This document shows, one piece after another, positions 16,433 to 20,720 of a stretch of DNA of 64,000 nt. Under the pieces are notes generated by a model that saw nothing but the letters and a program-made list of their open reading frames with translations, did no database searches and was not told the DNA's origin. Position 1 is the stretch's first letter. Each line of letters begins with the position of its first letter. The DNA lies in the NCBI RefSeq assembly GCF_006345805.1, contig NC_042998.1, forward strand, positions 74,772,001 through 74,836,000. Direction: 5' to 3'. The position numbers were made by a program, and so were the translations under genes. The stretch is from Octopus sinensis. Its lineage: Eukaryota.

Positions 16433-17292
16433 ATACATACACCACACACTCTCAAGCGAGAACACACATATATAATTGAAAACCAAAAGGATAGTGAAGA
16501 TTTATTCACGTCTGAGACTTTTATTAAAACGTTTTCTACAGCATATATAACAATGACCAACATATGTTTCTACTGCAGCAACTACACATTGTTCTGCGAG
16601 CAATTATGCAGCCTAGTTGCTACAGTTTCATCAAAGGTCCATCACTTACGACGTTTTCATAGTGAGCTAATTGAAACAAGACTCTCGCGTTGGTATTTAA
16701 TTGAAGGTGATACCGTTACTTTTTAAATCGAATTGAATTCTGGTCTTATAATCTCTTCTACTGGTATTGCAGTAGAATTGTGGTTTTACATTTTTTAATA
16801 TATATTACAATTAATTGGAGCAGTTTTCTTCACATTTTACTGTATAAAGGGAGATAAGGAGAGAAAAGAGAATAAGGAATGTATTGAAAGGAGAAATCAA
16901 AAACGGTTAAGAAGGTCATTAAGGCTTTTCACGATTAGAAAATTTAGCCGGAATGAGCAGCTTGAGAGAGGTGTGCTGATAAAGGGATATGAGGGAAACG
17001 GACAAGTAAAGAAAAAAACAAAAACAAAAACAAAAACAAATGGCCATAAGAACCTGGAATATGTTTATTTAAATTCATTGAGAGACATATAAAGACATAC
17101 ACATTCATGTATATACGTATAGATACACATATGCATGTACGCATATACATACGTAAAAACATACATACATGCATAGATGCGTACATACATACATACATAC
17201 TTACATACTAAAAACATTCATAGATATATAAAAAGAAGCTCACTCTAAGTTATACAGCAGTTTATAATATAAAGTTAGATAGGGACAGTTAA

Positions 17293-17355
17293 TAGGATTA
17301 TCCTGGGTTTCACGTCCATAAAGCGCTTAGTTTTATGGCCTATCATCAGATCCCA
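17293..17355 (-). ncRNA. Type I hammerhead motif (left arm)
   Basis: Reverse complement: tgggat-CTGATGA-t-aggccataaa..tttatggacgt-GAA-ACCCAGGAT-A-atccta. Confidence 0.65.
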
Positions 17356-17373
17356 AAATCTGCTTGCTTGTTT

Positions 17374-17436
17374 TGGGATCTGATGATATGGCGTAAATCT
17401 AAGCGCTTCATGGACGTGAAACCCAGTGTTATCCCA
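17374..17436 (+). ncRNA. Type I hammerhead motif (right arm)
   Basis: tgggat-CTGATGA-t-atg...cgt-GAA-ACCCAGTGT-T-atccca; perfect 6-bp stem I, GUU site. Confidence 0.7.
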
Positions 17437-17721
17437 TAAACTGGGCTTATCTAACTTTATTCACACACACACATATATATATATATATATGTAGATATAT
17501 ATATATACGGTAAAATTATACTTAAGGGCACAGAAGCTATAATTGTACCATATACAATTTTATATTTCTATATATGTATTTTACCTAAAAGATTTTACAT
17601 ATGCTGGTCTCTCATAAAATTCGTTGATTTTAATTTTTTATCCTTCAGTTATGCTTATATATATATACAAGCAGAGATACACGGCGTTCCTCGGGATTAA
17701 AATGGCATAGTTTATTTTATT

Positions 17722-17916
17722 GTTTTACTTGTTTCGGTCATGTGACTGCGGCCATGCCGGAGTACAGCCTTTAGTCGAAGAATCGACCCCAGGCTTTATT
17801 CTTTGTAAGCCTAGTACTTATTCTATCGGTGCGTTTTGCCAAACGGCTAAAGTACGCGGATGTAAACACAGCAACTTCGGTTGTCAAGTGATGGTGGAAG
17901 TAAAAACACACACACA
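17722..17916 (-). mobile_element. 3' half of the tRNA-derived SINE family at 22067 and 43001
   Basis: ttttacttgtttcggtcatgtgactgcggccatgc...gtaagcctagtacttattctatcgg closely matches 22067-22260. Confidence 0.85.
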
Positions 17917-17918
17917 AA

Positions 17919-18110
17919 TCTATTATATAAAATCCTTTCTGTCTGTGTGGGTGTCTTCTAAAGATCTCAAGTATCCTCCATCAGATTGCACTCAAATTTA
18001 ATATGTAGATACCGACGGTATCAGAGCGTGTATAAGTCTTGAAAAAATTGCAAAAATCGATTCCAGGTGAGTATGCGACCGATAAAGCCGTGGGAACGTG
18101 CATTTACACG
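17919..18110 (+). mobile_element. 5' end of a non-autonomous Helitron-like element inserted in the SINE (CA)n
   Basis: a|TCtattatataaaatc..ctgtctgtgtg has the same 5' layout as the elements at 31579 and 43826. Confidence 0.5.
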
Positions 18111-18270
18111 CGCAAGTACATCCGTCTTTTGCTGATGTCTCAAATTTAGGTTAAATCAGTGTTTCTCAAAGGAGAGGCCTATGGGACGGTCGGACAAGTT
18201 GTTTTGAGAAAATTTGGTTTAAATGTTTGACAACTCAGCACCGTCCATTGGACGGGAGGCGCTTTGCTCG

Positions 18271-18302
<32 letters not shown>

Positions 18303-18338
18303 ATCCGTTCAAGATTTACTTTACATTCTGCATAATAT

Positions 18339-18441
18339 AAGGTTAGGGTTTAGTGTTAGGGTTAAGGTTTAGGGTTAAGGTCTAGGGTTAGGGTTAAGGT
18401 TAGGGTTCGGCTTAGGGTTAGGATTTAGGATTAAGGTTAGA
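18339..18441 (+). repeat. Degenerate interstitial (TTAGGG)n-like array
   Basis: ggttagggtttagtgttagggttaaggtttagggttaagg...ttagggttaggatttagg. Confidence 0.85.
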
Positions 18442-19042: not shown

Positions 19043-20720
19043 GGTTAAACTAAAGCGTTACACCATTCAAAGAAACAAAAAAATGTGTGTAATAGGTGTA
19101 AAACAACTTCCTCTGAACGAATATGAAAAAAAATGCGCGCACCCGAAAGGGGAGTGGGGAGAGGCCTCGGAAAATTTACAACGGGAATTTCCGATAGCGT
19201 CTGACCCGGGCGCAAAAACAAAAACAAAAATAGCGTAATAGGTGTAAAACAACTTGCTCTAAATGAATATGACAAAAAATGCGCACTCGCGAAAGAGGGG
19301 TGGGGCAGAGGCCTCGGAAAATTTACATCGGGAATTTCCGAAAGCGTCTGACCCGGGCACAAAACCAAAAACAAAAATAGCGCAATAGGTGTAAAACAAC
19401 TTGCTCTAAACGACTATGATGAAAGAAATGCGCGCTCACGAAAGGGGGCGTGGGGGAGAGGCTTCGGAAAGTTCACATCTTCAGGGTCGATAGTATATAG
19501 CGATTCTTGGGCTGCGTATAACTCTCTTGGAAATCTCGGCTATACCCTCTTCCGCATCAACCACAGTGAAAATTTTGTTGATCCTACAAACGCGTCGGTG
19601 CACACACAGGTGATAGAGAGATTGTGGGGGTCAGTTAAGAGATCAGTTGTTCGCCCAGGCATTCTTGCCTGTTACTTAAAGCAATACCTCGCCAAGTTCC
19701 TATTTATGGAAAGCATCAAACCTGCTGCCAAGAGAATACACGTATTCTTATTGGCAGTAGCAAGTCTTCATCCTGGCCCGAGATAATTTTTTCCTCCAAA
19801 CGCAACCCATCTCATTTCTTTATCATCACTGTCGATGGACCACTCAAAGAGGTATGTATACATTATCATTTTCGTAATATAATTTCTGTAAAATTTCAAG
19901 ATGTTTCTGACACGTATTTTGATTCACATGGCGAAGATCCAACATTTCTTCACTTTTTCCAGAATTTCTTCTCTTTATTTTTCTTTTTTGCGAAATATGT
20001 ACAAAAATACGGAGTTTATGATTCATGAGTGAGTGTGTGTTCTTGATAATCGTTTAGAACAAGTAGTTTTACACCAATTACACTATTTTTTCTTAGTTTA
20101 AAGGCCGTGGACTGAAGATGTGAAATTTCCGAAGCCTCTCCCCACCCCCTTTCGTGAGCGCGCATTTTTTTCATCATATTCGTTTAGAGCAAGTTGTTTT
20201 ACACCTATTACGCTATTTTTGTTTTTGTTTTTGTGCCCGGGTCAGACGCTTTCGGAAATTCCCGATGTAAATTTTCCGAGGCCTCTCCCCCACCCCTCTT
20301 TCGCGAGTGCGCATTTTGTTTTTGTCATATTCGTTTAGAGCAAATTGTTTTACACATATTACACTATTTTTTGTTTGTTTTGGTGCCCAGGTCAGCCCCT
20401 CCGACGCTTTAGGAAATTCCCGATGTGAATTTTCCGAGGCCTCTCCCCACCCCTCTTTCGCGAGTGCGCATTTTGTTTTTGTCATATTCGTTTAGAGCAA
20501 ATTGTTTTACACATATTACACTATTTTTTGTTTGTTTTGGTGCCCAGGTCAGCCCCTCCGACGCTTTAGGAAATTCCCGATGTGAATTTTCCGAGGCCTC
20601 TCCTCCACTCCCCTTTCGCGTGCGCGCATTTGTTTTCATATTCGTTCAGAGGAAGTTGTTTTACACCTATTACACACATTTTTTTTGTTTCTTTGAATGG
20701 TGTAGTGCTTTAGTTTAACC
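19043..20720 (+). mobile_element. Internally deleted Merlin (IS1595/IS1016-like) DNA transposon with long compound TIRs
   Basis: Termini GGTTAAACTAAAGC...GCTTTAGTTTAACC. 8-bp TSD gaatttcc / gaaattcc. TIRs at about 19043-19484 and 20111-20720 are built of about 150-bp tandem units. Confidence 0.9.
19481..19786 (+). pseudogene. C-terminal half of a Merlin/IS1595-family DDE transposase
   Basis: Open frame SGSIVYSDSWAAYNSLGNLGYTLFRINHSENFVDPTNASVHTQVIERLWGSVKR, matching IxSDxWxAY..NHS..FVDP..HTQxIExxW. The N-terminus and first catalytic Asp are missing. Confidence 0.9.

What the first reader, a model, noticed from the sequence alone, without database searches (positions are those of the whole stretch)
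17269..17460. Bidirectional double-hammerhead foldback cassette
Seen: 90-bp inverted arms and a 12-nt spacer. Each arm holds a complete hammerhead reading away from the centre, so transcription from either strand yields one ribozyme plus its antisense. Arm consensus stem III is ACCC-A-GGGT followed by A (GUA site). The cassette lies between (TACA)n and (CA)(TA)n. Established: Penelope insertions often have inverted pLTRs. Inference: minimal head-to-head pLTR insertions in which the long hairpin would compete with ribozyme folding and form a dsRNA substrate for ADAR or Dicer, which is relevant given heavy A-to-I editing in coleoids.
Basis: partly seen in the sequence, partly recalled or inferred. 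Interest (0 to 1): 0.75.

Follow-up and report, generated by a model that had tools for sequence, protein, structure and literature searches.

The report
Decayed fold-back Penelope retroelement insertion
The 192-base hairpin is two tail ends of a Penelope-like jumping gene joined head to head in an octopus-type genome, each carrying that family's small hammerhead-ribozyme motif in eroded form that would probably no longer cut; this is a known way for these elements to land, so the feature is ordinary.

Summary
The inverted repeat is real: arms 17269-17358 and 17371-17460, 86% complementary, hairpin -116.9 kcal/mol, z -19.

It is not a free-standing ribozyme cassette. Each arm is the 3' untranslated end of a Penelope-like element (PLE). 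In longer copies the arm starts about 88 nt after the stop of an RT plus GIY-YIG-endonuclease ORF.

Both arms keep CUGAUGA, GAAA and a 6-bp helix I. Helices II and III are eroded, and no Rfam hammerhead model matches. That negative is uninformative, because Rfam also missed all 20 tested motifs in related PLEs.

The family has at least 505 copies of the motif's 3' half. In 79 sampled loci:
- 28 are head-to-head pairs, 22 of them with a gap of 30 nt or less.
- 26 of the 28 pairs carry the 3' "tail" on exactly one arm, as this locus does.
- 60 of 107 5' ends fall within 56 nt at the motif's upstream edge.

This matches the published PLE insertion unit: inverted 5'-truncated copy, one-sided tail, microsatellite target.

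The "spacer" is the last 12 nt of the longer left copy. The insertion is old (arm distance 0.16) and is shared with a run labelled as another organism.

dsRNA editing or dicing is untested. This scan has found the same pattern repeatedly in other genomes.

The parts
17208..17268 (-). 3' 'tail' of the left (minus-strand) PLE copy. It is present on this arm only. The outer limit is uncertain: BLAST support reaches 17230, with weaker alignment to about 17208.
   Evidence: reference positions 390-533 align to window 17369-17230 at 82.6%. (alignment with tail-bearing copies).
17269..17358 (-). Left arm: the 3'UTR end module of the PLE on the minus strand. Its hammerhead-like motif spans 17355-17293. 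Helix I 5' strand is 17355-17350, CUGAUGA 17349-17343, helix II 17342-17312, GAAA 17311-17308, helix III remnant 17308-17300, H17 = A at 17299, and helix I 3' strand 17298-17293.
17359..17370 (-). It is the 5'-most 12 nt of the left copy (element sequence just upstream of helix I), so the two copies abut with no filler.
   Evidence: BLAST of a natural long copy reaches 17369. (family sequence upstream of helix I).
17371..17460 (+). Right arm: a 5'-truncated PLE 3' end on the plus strand, without a tail. Its hammerhead-like motif spans 17374-17436. Helix I 5' strand is 17374-17379, CUGAUGA 17380-17386, helix II 17387-17417, GAAA 17418-17421, helix III remnant 17421-17429, H17 = U at 17430, and helix I 3' strand 17431-17436.
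17145..17207 (.). Left flank: a degenerate (ATAC)n microsatellite, taken to be target DNA. Tandem Repeats Finder extends the array to 17230, overlapping the decayed tail.
   Evidence: 17145-17230, period 4, 68% matches.
17463..17507 (.). Right flank: (CA)5 followed by (TA)n microsatellite, taken to be target DNA. No target-site duplication can be discerned.
   Evidence: 17473-17507, period 2.

Best explanation
The hairpin is a pair of 5'-truncated 3' ends of a Penelope-like retroelement (PLE) lying head to head, most likely left by one old integration event and now inert.

Shown here:
- Each arm is homologous to the 3' untranslated end of a repeat family with at least 505 copies of the motif's 3' half.
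- Longer members of that family carry an RT plus C-terminal GIY-YIG endonuclease ORF that ends about 88 nt before the arm.
- The arm carries the family's PLE-type minimal hammerhead motif.
- About a third of sampled copies are head-to-head pairs, nearly all with the 3' 'tail' on one arm only, as at this locus.

Inferred, following the published in-vitro behaviour of a lizard PLE:
- The element's RT-endonuclease nicked both strands of an AT/CA-rich microsatellite.
- Each nick primed reverse transcription from one of two adjacent internal start sites near the RNA's 3' end, which explains a tail on one side only.
- Both cDNAs stopped just after copying the hammerhead region, at the family's hot spot for 5' ends.
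- Host repair then joined them.

The hammerhead motifs are passengers of this process. At this locus they are eroded and would be locked in the long hairpin in any transcript.
For: Identity:
- The arm is repeated. There were 747 first-look candidates, and 44 matches at 75-100% identity (84-91% apart from three: the query's own copy at 100%, and a partial and a weak match at 85% and 75%).
- Solo copies extend inward by more than 1.1 kb.
- L010 ORF 661-1413 aligns to residues 600-710 of the 713-aa protein P0002, with YIG...CxxC...LNxRxE (34% identity, E 1e-14). The arm starts at 1501.
- An RT fragment (L031:2104-2589, with YRDD and YRKP motifs) hits P0002 at 47% identity over 86% of the query, E 1e-31.
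- P0002's family has 2340 proteins at E<=1e-10. One member, P0003, passes Pfam GIY-YIG (26.2 bits against a cutoff of 22.6).

Motif:
- In related PLE loci, 40 of 62 with at least 80 nt downstream have CUGANGA...GAAA within 500 nt after the ORF.
- Among 34 distinct motifs, helix I is at least 4 bp in 28, against a permuted control mean of 4.0 and maximum of 9.
- Helix III is a near-palindrome AC...GU with 22 different sequences.
- The octopus family fits this architecture. In well-kept copies the hammerhead-constrained fold is within 1.4-2.9 kcal/mol of the MFE.

Architecture:
- 10 of 25 loci in the first sample have a head-to-head partner.
- In an independent sample of 79 loci, 28 are pairs and 22 have a gap of 30 nt or less. 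The tail is on exactly one arm in 26 of 28 pairs, and in 11 of 51 solo copies. 60 of 107 5' ends lie at reference positions 360-415, where helix I starts at 401.
- At this locus the 5' ends are at about 389 and 400, the gap is 0, and only the left arm has the tail.

Literature:
- Dual min-hammerheads 100-700 bp apart on opposite strands (PMC4209133, main text read).
- Inverted 5'-truncated copy, one-sided tail, and microsatellite insertion bias (PMC8557442, passages read).
- A PLE protein that cleaves and extends both strands, with two RT start sites defining the tail (PMC11167929, main text read).

Age:
- The arm-to-arm Jukes-Cantor distance is 0.16.
- A contig from a run labelled with a different organism bridges the junction (17306-17454) with 1 difference.
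Against: - No tool-based family name could be put on the octopus ORF fragments themselves. Pfam returned nothing significant for them or for P0002, and PDB returned none. The RT assignment therefore rests on motifs I recognise, on homology to a large unnamed protein family, and on one GIY-YIG hit in a relative.
- No target-site duplication or empty site was found, so 'one event' is inferred from abutting 5' ends and the one-tail rule. It is not proven.
- The two arms share no private variants that would prove a common template.
- The integration steps are taken from a lizard Poseidon element, not from this family.
- In that in-vitro system the two start sites were used alike on both strands. 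That does not by itself predict the strict one-tail pattern seen here.
Confidence: 0.88

Rival explanations
1. An exapted hairpin RNA locus. When transcribed, for example inside an intron, the 90-bp imperfect duplex is bound by ADAR (hyper-editing) or by Dicer (endo-siRNA). This would give the PLE fold-back a present-day role, or at least a molecular effect. It is compatible with the PLE origin.
For: - The hairpin is long and stable.
- Rfam's only matches are generic long-hairpin miRNA-precursor models, all far below their gathering scores (52.4 against 230 bits for the best).
- Porath et al. 2017 (PMC5625713, passages read) report that Penelope is the one additional massively hyper-edited LINE-class repeat in lizard.
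- The same paper reports that octopus has the strongest hyper-editing signal and an exceptionally high genomic potential for long dsRNA.
Against: - The arms have drifted apart to 86% with no sign of compensatory maintenance: 13 differences, 8 of them transversions.
- The locus lies in AT-rich, repeat-filled DNA with no evident exon nearby.
Confidence: 0.07
2. One reading: a working bidirectional ribozyme cassette in which either transcript self-cleaves at its hammerhead.
For: - Core boxes and a 6-bp helix I are intact in both arms.
- The family majority has a GUA site and a near-palindromic helix III of the kind PLE min-hammerheads use as dimers (PMC4209133).
Against: - Helix III is broken, with 1 pair in the left arm and 2 in the right. 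Helix II is eroded in both arms.
- The hammerhead-constrained folds are 9.6-10.6 kcal/mol worse than each arm's own MFE, and about 100 kcal/mol worse than the hairpin.
- In both transcript directions the antisense arm is made first.
- Even intact metazoan PLE min-hammerheads cleave poorly in vitro and not as monomers (PMC4209133).
- The lizard PLE hammerhead needs the element's protein (PMC11167929).
Confidence: 0.02
3. Two independent PLE insertions that happen to lie in opposite orientation, the second having landed next to the first in a microsatellite hot spot.
For: - PLEs favour microsatellites (PMC8557442).
- The two arms are no closer to each other (86%) than to other copies (85-91%).
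Against: - The two 5' ends abut exactly.
- 22 of 79 sampled loci show the same tight head-to-head form, and 26 of 28 pairs carry the tail on exactly one arm. If the two arms chose independently, exactly one tail could not exceed 50% of pairs.
Confidence: 0.04
4. A miniature inverted-repeat DNA transposon (MITE) or fold-back DNA element, with 90-bp terminal inverted repeats that merely resemble a hammerhead.
For: The shape fits: inverted arms, a short centre, and AT-rich flanks.
Against: - Many copies are solo arms continuous with a 1-kb-plus retroelement body that ends in an endonuclease ORF.
- The inner junctions vary from copy to copy.
- The outer ends are asymmetric, with a tail on one side.
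- No target duplication is visible.
Confidence: 0.01

Closest known systems
Insertion unit of canonical endonuclease-positive Penelope-like elements (pLTR, adjoining inverted 5'-truncated copy, one-sided 'tail'; Evgen'ev & Arkhipova 2005 as cited in, and Craig et al. 2021, PMC8557442)
   Same: - The ORF order is RT then C-terminal GIY-YIG.
- The hammerhead motif lies near the 3' end.
- 5' truncation is heavy.
- Inverted 5'-truncated partners are frequent.
- An extension is present at one end only.
- Insertion is into (TA)n/(CA)n-type microsatellites.
   Different: - Here both copies are truncated to stumps of about 90 and about 165 nt, so no ORF is left.
- The tail in this family is about 50-60 nt, where the published range is 30-40 nt.
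- The PLE clade was not determined.
PLE minimal hammerhead ribozymes (Cervera & de la Pena 2014, PMC4209133)
   Same: - Type I topology with CUGAUGA and GAAA boxes.
- A long helix II.
- An unpaired nucleotide after A9.
- A tiny, near-palindromic helix III suited to dimer formation.
- Occurrence as 'dual motifs on opposite strands' 100-700 bp apart.
   Different: - 10.1/11.1 is A-U (or U.U) and not the G-C that paper lists as highly conserved. Related PLEs sampled here also show U.U in 17 of 34 motifs.
- Helix II is unusually long, at about 12 bp with a bulged A.
- The two motifs at this locus are eroded.
Poseidon element of Anolis carolinensis, in-vitro integration (Frangieh et al. 2024, PMC11167929)
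   Same: It offers a mechanism for both hallmarks seen here: cleavage and extension of both DNA strands, and two adjacent internal RT start sites that delimit the tail. Its targets are also AT-rich.
   Different: - It is a different PLE family and host.
- There the hammerhead overlaps the ORF start, whereas here it lies after the ORF stop.
- The coupling of one tail per pair (26 of 28) is a genomic observation here and was not an in-vitro result there.
Non-LTR retrozymes (Cervera & de la Pena 2020, PMC7229834; Li et al. 2026 preprint, abstracts or listings seen only)
   Same: Short non-autonomous sequences carrying type I hammerheads that derive from PLE pLTRs.
   Different: Retrozymes are head-to-tail tandem repeats that give circular RNAs. 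This locus is a single head-to-head pair, with no tandem unit.

Membership tests
Penelope-like element (EN+), insertion unit | [quoted passage not shown] | tested here: met
   - The endonuclease C-terminus aligns to P0002 residues 600-710, and the Zn-finger-like linker plus GIY...YIG aligns to residues 564-615.
- An RT fragment is 47% identical to P0002.
- A relative, P0003, passes Pfam GIY-YIG.
- Caveat: Pfam does not name the octopus fragments or the RT part. The RT motif reading (YRDD, YRKP) is my own recognition.
Penelope-like element (EN+), insertion unit | Adjoining inverted 5'-truncated copy (head-to-head) | tested here: met
   Present at this locus. Also present in 10 of 25 loci and 28 of 79 loci.
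Penelope-like element (EN+), insertion unit | 'Tail' extension at only one end of the unit | tested here: met
   The left copy has it and the right copy lacks it. 26 of 28 pairs have exactly one tail. The length is about 50-60 nt, where the published range is 30-40 nt.
Penelope-like element (EN+), insertion unit | Direct pLTRs or partial tandem arrangement around full-length copies | tested here: inconclusive
   L031 shows nested tandem and inverted fragments, and one locus has direct copies 293 nt apart.
Penelope-like element (EN+), insertion unit | Insertion bias to microsatellite or AT-rich DNA | tested here: met
   The flanks at this locus are (ATAC)n and (CA)n(TA)n. Many copies end directly in (TA)n or (CA)n. 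This was not quantified against the genome background.
Hammerhead ribozyme (type I, PLE min-HHR variant) | Conserved core boxes CUGANGA and GAAA in the right order and spacing | tested here: met
   Both arms have them. 25 of 31 full-length family arms keep both boxes.
Hammerhead ribozyme (type I, PLE min-HHR variant) | Helix I formed by the sequence 5' of C3 and the sequence 3' of the cleavage site | tested here: met
   Both arms have 6 bp, UGGGAU with AUCCCA on the right and with AUCCUA on the left. In relatives, 28 of 34 motifs have at least 4 bp, against a permuted control mean of 4.0.
Hammerhead ribozyme (type I, PLE min-HHR variant) | Helix II closed by G10.1-C11.1 | tested here: not met
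   The family has an unpaired U followed by A-U, or alternatively U.U. Related PLE motifs show U.U 17, G-C 12, G.U 3 and A-U 2 of 34, so the clade as a whole departs from this rule.
Hammerhead ribozyme (type I, PLE min-HHR variant) | Helix III with A15.1-U16.1 and C15.2-G16.2, followed by H17 | tested here: inconclusive
   Met in the family majority (ACCCAGGGU then A). The right arm keeps A-U and C-G only. The left arm has lost C15.2-G16.2.
Hammerhead ribozyme (type I, PLE min-HHR variant) | Match to curated covariance models (Rfam Hammerhead_1 and others) | tested here: not met
   There was no hammerhead hit in the window at gathering threshold, at E<=10 on 17200-17530, or on a near-majority solo copy. 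As a control, 0 of 20 related PLE 3'UTR motifs were detected at E<=0.01, so this test has little power for PLE min-hammerheads.
Hammerhead ribozyme (type I, PLE min-HHR variant) | Self-cleavage at the predicted site | not testable with these tools
   Needs in-vitro transcription. My genomic sample was anchored on a 26-mer that spans the predicted site, so it cannot show cleavage-derived ends.
MITE / fold-back DNA transposon | Constant terminal inverted repeats flanked by a fixed-length target-site duplication | tested here: not met
   The inner junctions vary, the outer ends are asymmetric, solo arms are continuous with a retroelement body, and no duplication is seen.
Non-LTR retrozyme | Head-to-tail tandem monomers, each with a type I hammerhead | tested here: not met
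   There are only two copies in the window, and they are inverted.
miRNA precursor | Match to a curated family above its gathering score | tested here: not met
   The best match is MIR7533 at 52.4 bits against a gathering score of 230. These are generic hairpin matches only.

The most novel reading that the evidence does not exclude
There are two linked readings.

(1) dsRNA source. In octopus genomes, fold-back stubs of Penelope-like elements number on the order of a hundred tight hairpins from this one family alone. They could be a systematic, built-in source of long intramolecular dsRNA. If so, they would contribute measurably to the exceptional ADAR hyper-editing load of coleoids, as Penelope does in lizard.

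(2) Coordinated priming. The near-absolute rule that exactly one arm of a pair carries the tail (26 of 28, where independent choice could give at most half) suggests coordination. The two strands of a target would be primed at the two different RT start sites by the two halves of a dimeric PLE enzyme.
Probability: 0.25. Interest if true: 0.4.

Novelty: new member of a known kind. Interest (0 to 1): 0.15.

Why it matters
On its own it matters little. It is a decayed example of a documented insertion architecture, and this scan has met the same pattern many times in other genomes.

Its modest value has three parts:
- It documents a cephalopod PLE family whose hammerhead motif departs from the G10.1-C11.1 rule and escapes Rfam. 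Annotation pipelines will therefore miss such motifs.
- It gives numbers for the one-tail rule and for the 5'-end hot spot at the motif's upstream edge. Both constrain models of PLE integration.
- It points to a concrete, countable class of hairpins that could be checked against octopus hyper-editing data.

Tried and rejected
- **Rfam.** The whole window at gathering threshold gave 0 hits. At E<=10 on 17200-17530, and on L003:1420-1720, there was no hammerhead, only sub-threshold generic hairpin or snoRNA models.
- **Pfam.** Eight octopus ORF fragments and P0002 gave nothing significant.
- **PDB sequence search with P0002.** No match.
- **Exact search for the junction** (two 15-mers with a gap of 0-30). 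It found only this locus, because copies are about 85% alike, so it says nothing about frequency.
- **Notes of this scan for this genome.** None exist.
- **Sequencing runs.** No RNA holder was listed.
- **Contigs of four runs guessed to be RNA (X12, X13, X19, X20).** No contig bridges the junction. The short pieces on the arms run on into sequence of other family copies. One low-depth contig covers 16920-17144 only. No conclusion on expression or editing can be drawn.
- **Contigs of four DNA or unlabelled runs at 85% likeness.** These were swamped by high-copy repeats. The only usable piece is X2 record 12. A 'skip 17261-17431' joint in X14 has only 24 letters on one side, and I do not rely on it.
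- **Target-site duplication.** None is discernible in the microsatellite flanks.
- **Shared private variants between the two arms.** None was found.
- **PLE clade** (Neptune/Nematis or Penelope/Poseidon). Not resolved.
- **Print search for this octopus motif.** 'Hammerhead ribozyme' plus 'octopus' returned 5 papers, 4 of them listed. None describes this motif in its title or abstract (listing only).
- **A clean full-length element with its 5' end.** Not recovered, so 'pLTR' in the strict sense was not delimited.
Full report
**1. The observation**

The window holds an inverted repeat with arms at 17269-17358 and 17371-17460. Each arm is 90 nt, they are 86% complementary, and 12 nt lie between them.

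As RNA the 192 nt fold into one long hairpin. The energy is -116.9 kcal/mol, shuffles average -42.3, z is -19.2, and 0 of 200 shuffles fold as well. The other strand gives -114.9 kcal/mol.

CTGATGA...GAAAC occurs once in each arm, at 17380-17422 on the plus strand and 17349-17307 on the minus strand. Both read away from the centre. There are 3 such matches in the window where 0.28 are expected.

So the repeat and the core boxes are real and are not chance.

**2. What the arm is**

The right arm is a dispersed repeat in the window's own genome, which has 2.72 Gb in 13,516 contigs. The search gave 747 first-look candidates and 44 matches at 75-100% identity; all but three are 84-91% (the query's own copy at 100%, and a partial and a weak match at 85% and 75%).

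Many copies are solo arms whose homology runs on inward for more than 1.1 kb. In such a copy (L010) a reading frame at 661-1413 ends 88 nt before the arm.
- Its last 116 residues align to residues 600-710 of a 713-residue protein, P0002, at 34% identity and E 1e-14.
- The alignment carries the YIG...CxxC...LNxRxE pattern of a GIY-YIG endonuclease C-terminus.

Further upstream in the same region (L031):
- A frame with YRDD and YRKP motifs matches P0002 at 47% identity over 86% of its length, E 1e-31. It also matches an Octopus bimaculoides gene model at 64%.
- Another fragment aligns to P0002's cysteine-rich linker and GIY...YIG stretch.

P0002 belongs to a family of 2340 proteins at E<=1e-10. 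One member from a bivalve passes Pfam's GIY-YIG threshold, at 26.2 bits against a cutoff of 22.6.

Pfam gives nothing significant for the octopus fragments or for P0002, and the PDB holds no relative. The reverse-transcriptase call therefore rests on motifs I recognise and on this homology.

**3. The hammerhead motif**

In an alignment of 25 independent loci, the majority reads as follows:
- a 6-bp helix I (UGGGAU with AUCCCA);
- CUGAUGA;
- one unpaired U;
- a helix II of about 12 bp with a bulged A;
- GAAA;
- a near-palindromic helix III (ACCCAGGGU);
- A at position 17, then the helix I return strand.

The motif matches the PLE 'min-hammerhead' described by Cervera and de la Pena (PMC4209133; I read the main text, parts 1-2). 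That description includes a long helix II, an unpaired nucleotide after A9, a tiny palindromic helix III thought to work in dimers, and poor cleavage in vitro. The paper also lists a highly conserved G10.1-C11.1 pair. This family does not have it and shows A-U, or alternatively U.U.

No Rfam hammerhead model matches the window at gathering threshold, at E<=10, or on a near-majority solo copy.

To judge these two negatives I fetched 78 metagenome loci encoding relatives of the ORF.
- Of 62 loci with at least 80 nt downstream, 40 have CUGANGA...GAAA within 500 nt after the ORF.
- Among 34 distinct motifs, helix I is at least 4 bp in 28. When the upstream strands are permuted among loci the mean is 4.0 and the maximum 9.
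- Helix III is AC...GU with internal complementarity in 22 different sequences.
- Position 17 is A in 25 of 34.
- The 10.1/11.1 pair is U.U in 17, G-C in 12, G.U in 3 and A-U in 2.
- Rfam at E<=0.01 detected none of the 20 motifs I gave it. Its only hits were two canonical type I hammerheads on the opposite strand of one contig.

So the Rfam blank has little weight, and the departure from G-C is a trait of this PLE clade.

In well-kept natural octopus copies the hammerhead-constrained fold is close to the unconstrained optimum: -20.5 against -23.4 kcal/mol, and -21.3 against -22.7 kcal/mol.

**4. State of the two motifs at this locus**

Both arms keep the core boxes and a 6-bp helix I. The rest is eroded.
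- In the right arm helix III is ACCCAGTGT followed by T, which leaves two pairs.
- In the left arm it is ACCCAGGAT followed by A. The C15.2-G16.2 pair is lost and one pair is left.
- Helix II folds at only -5.4 kcal/mol in each arm, against -13 to -14 in the best copies.
- The hammerhead-constrained folds are -8.8 and -3.1 kcal/mol, against -19.4 and -12.7 for each arm's own optimum.

In a transcript of either strand the antisense arm is made first, and the hairpin is about 100 kcal/mol more stable. 'A complete hammerhead in each arm' is therefore only partly true. Cleavage here is unlikely, but that is an inference and not a test.

**5. Anatomy refined**

A natural long copy aligns to the window twice, and nowhere else in the 64 kb:
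- reference positions 400-491 on 17370-17461 (plus strand, 88%);
- reference positions 390-533 on 17369-17230 (minus strand, 83%).

Two things follow.
- The '12-nt spacer' is the 5'-most part of the left copy, so the two copies abut with no filler.
- The left copy continues beyond 17269 into a 3' extension that the right copy lacks. It reaches 17230 by BLAST and probably about 17208 by alignment.

The right copy ends at ...CTAACTTTAT, directly against (CA)5(TA)n. The left tail ends against a degenerate (ATAC)n array. No target duplication can be seen.

**6. Is this architecture typical of the family?**

In the first sample of 25 independent loci, 10 have a head-to-head partner within 1.5 kb. 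That sample is 30 loci less five that duplicate another.

For a sample that does not depend on what lies upstream, I searched a 26-mer spanning the GAAA box through the helix I return strand.
- It has 16 exact matches and 505 with 2 mismatches or fewer. The reversed control has none.
- Of the 100 places listed, 18 lay in loci I already held. The other 82 were fetched as 79 stretches.

In these 79 stretches:
- 28 have a head-to-head partner within 600 nt, and 22 of those have a gap of 30 nt or less.
- The 3' extension is on exactly one arm in 26 of 28 pairs, on both in 1 and on neither in 1.
- The extension is present in 11 of 51 solo copies.
- Of 107 5' ends, 60 fall at reference positions 360-415, where helix I begins at 401 and C3 is at 410. 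Only 23 fall in the 360 nt before that.

This locus has 5' ends at about 389 and 400, gap 0, and one tail. It is a typical member.

If each arm chose its end independently, 'exactly one tail' could not exceed half of the pairs. On that basis, 26 of 28 has a probability of about 1.5e-6 (my arithmetic).

A caveat applies: the anchor spans the predicted cleavage site. This sample therefore cannot reveal ends made by ribozyme cleavage, and it cannot test whether fold-backs in general are enriched for hammerheads.

**7. Comparison with what is known**

Each of these traits is already in print for PLEs.
- Cervera and de la Pena report dual min-hammerheads 100-700 bp apart on opposite strands, and mostly solo motifs from truncated PLEs.
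- Craig et al. 2021 (PMC8557442; passages read) describe heavy 5' truncation, an inverted 5'-truncated copy next to the unit, and a 30-40-bp 'tail' often present at one end only. They also describe hammerheads near the 3' end and insertion bias for (TA)n and (CA)n.
- Frangieh et al. 2024 (PMC11167929; main text read) show for a lizard PLE that the protein cleaves and extends both DNA strands. They show that reverse transcription starts at two adjacent internal sites whose interval is the tail, and that targets are AT-rich. They also show that the hammerhead needs the protein and is dispensable for insertion in vitro.

The simplest reading of the present locus has four steps:
- Both strands of a microsatellite were nicked.
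- Each strand was primed at one of the two start sites.
- Both cDNAs were abandoned shortly after the hammerhead region.
- The ends were joined.

These steps are inferred by analogy and were not shown here. A plain snap-back of one cDNA on itself would give arms with equal outer ends. The one-tail rule argues against that.

**8. Age**

The arms differ at 13 of 90 positions, a Jukes-Cantor distance of 0.16.

If the arms were identical at insertion, each has drifted by about 0.08. A recent Octopus vulgaris repeat study equates 0.09 with about 25 million years (PMC13282606; passages read). On that scale the event is of the order of 20 million years old. This is a rough inference.

A 176-nt contig from a run labelled with a different organism covers 17306-17454 with one difference. 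It bridges the junction, so the insertion predates that split or the two labels are very close.

**9. The dsRNA idea**

Porath et al. 2017 (PMC5625713; passages read) found Penelope to be the one additional massively hyper-edited LINE-class repeat in lizard. They found octopus to have the strongest hyper-editing and an exceptional potential for long dsRNA. They did not analyse octopus repeats.

Here it could not be tested.
- No RNA holder of the locus was listed.
- The contigs of four runs guessed to be RNA do not bridge the junction.
- The neighbourhood is AT-rich and repeat-filled, with no evident exon.

**10. Verdict**

This is a real but ordinary relic: a fold-back stub of a Penelope-like element carrying eroded copies of the family's hammerhead motif.

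Notes of this scan record the same pattern in several other genomes. In this genome I checked their main points myself: stubs made of two tail ends, one arm shorter, and arms stopping just before the ribozyme.

Novelty is limited to three things:
- a cephalopod family with a non-G-C 10.1/11.1 pair and an expanded helix II;
- the numbers for the one-tail rule;
- the numbers for the 5'-end hot spot.

Noticed in passing
Own-genome loci L113-L191: In head-to-head pairs of this PLE family, the 50-60-nt 3' 'tail' is on exactly one arm in 26 of 28 pairs. Only 11 of 51 solo copies have it. The coupling is far stronger than independent choice of two RT start sites would allow.
   Followed up: partly
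Own-genome loci L113-L191, reference positions 360-415: 60 of 107 5' ends fall in a 56-nt stretch that runs from about 40 nt upstream of hammerhead helix I to the CUGAUGA box. This is either a stalling or switching hot spot, or a preferred template start.
   Followed up: partly
L059:2636-2682 and L059:2917-2963, minus strand: A marine-metagenome contig encoding a related PLE ORF also carries two canonical Rfam Hammerhead_1 matches (35.9 bits each, gathering score 34). They lie 281 nt apart on the opposite strand, downstream of the ORF. This looks like a retrozyme-type tandem next to a PLE.
   Followed up: no
window 17700-18400: An extremely high-copy repeat. Summed contig word depths reach the millions in four runs, and recurrent loose-end sequences are shared across organisms. 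It is probably one of the abundant octopus SINE-like families.
   Followed up: no
window 19352-19786 (+): A 144-aa open frame with a ...DSWAAYN...HSENFVDP...HTQ.IE..W... pattern. From memory, this recalls IS1595/ISXO2-type DDE transposase domains. It is flanked by inverted low-complexity frames. I did not search it.
   Followed up: no
L010:614-1150, and the corresponding parts of L032 and L033: Several long copies of the PLE carry a low-complexity stretch of about 170 codons, rich in Asn/Ser/Thr or Thr/Ala/Pro depending on the frame. It lies between the RT and endonuclease parts of the ORF and has no counterpart in P0002.
   Followed up: no
Genome-wide pattern hits: Many copies read GGGAAACCC where the majority has GTGAAACCC just before the GAAA box. 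This suggests a distinct subfamily in which the nucleotide that pairs at 11.1 is changed.
   Followed up: no
P0001: An Octopus bimaculoides UniRef entry is named 'PH domain-containing protein' (862 aa). It matches the PLE RT fragment at 64% identity over 85% of the query. The gene model probably fuses a host gene with a PLE remnant.
   Followed up: no
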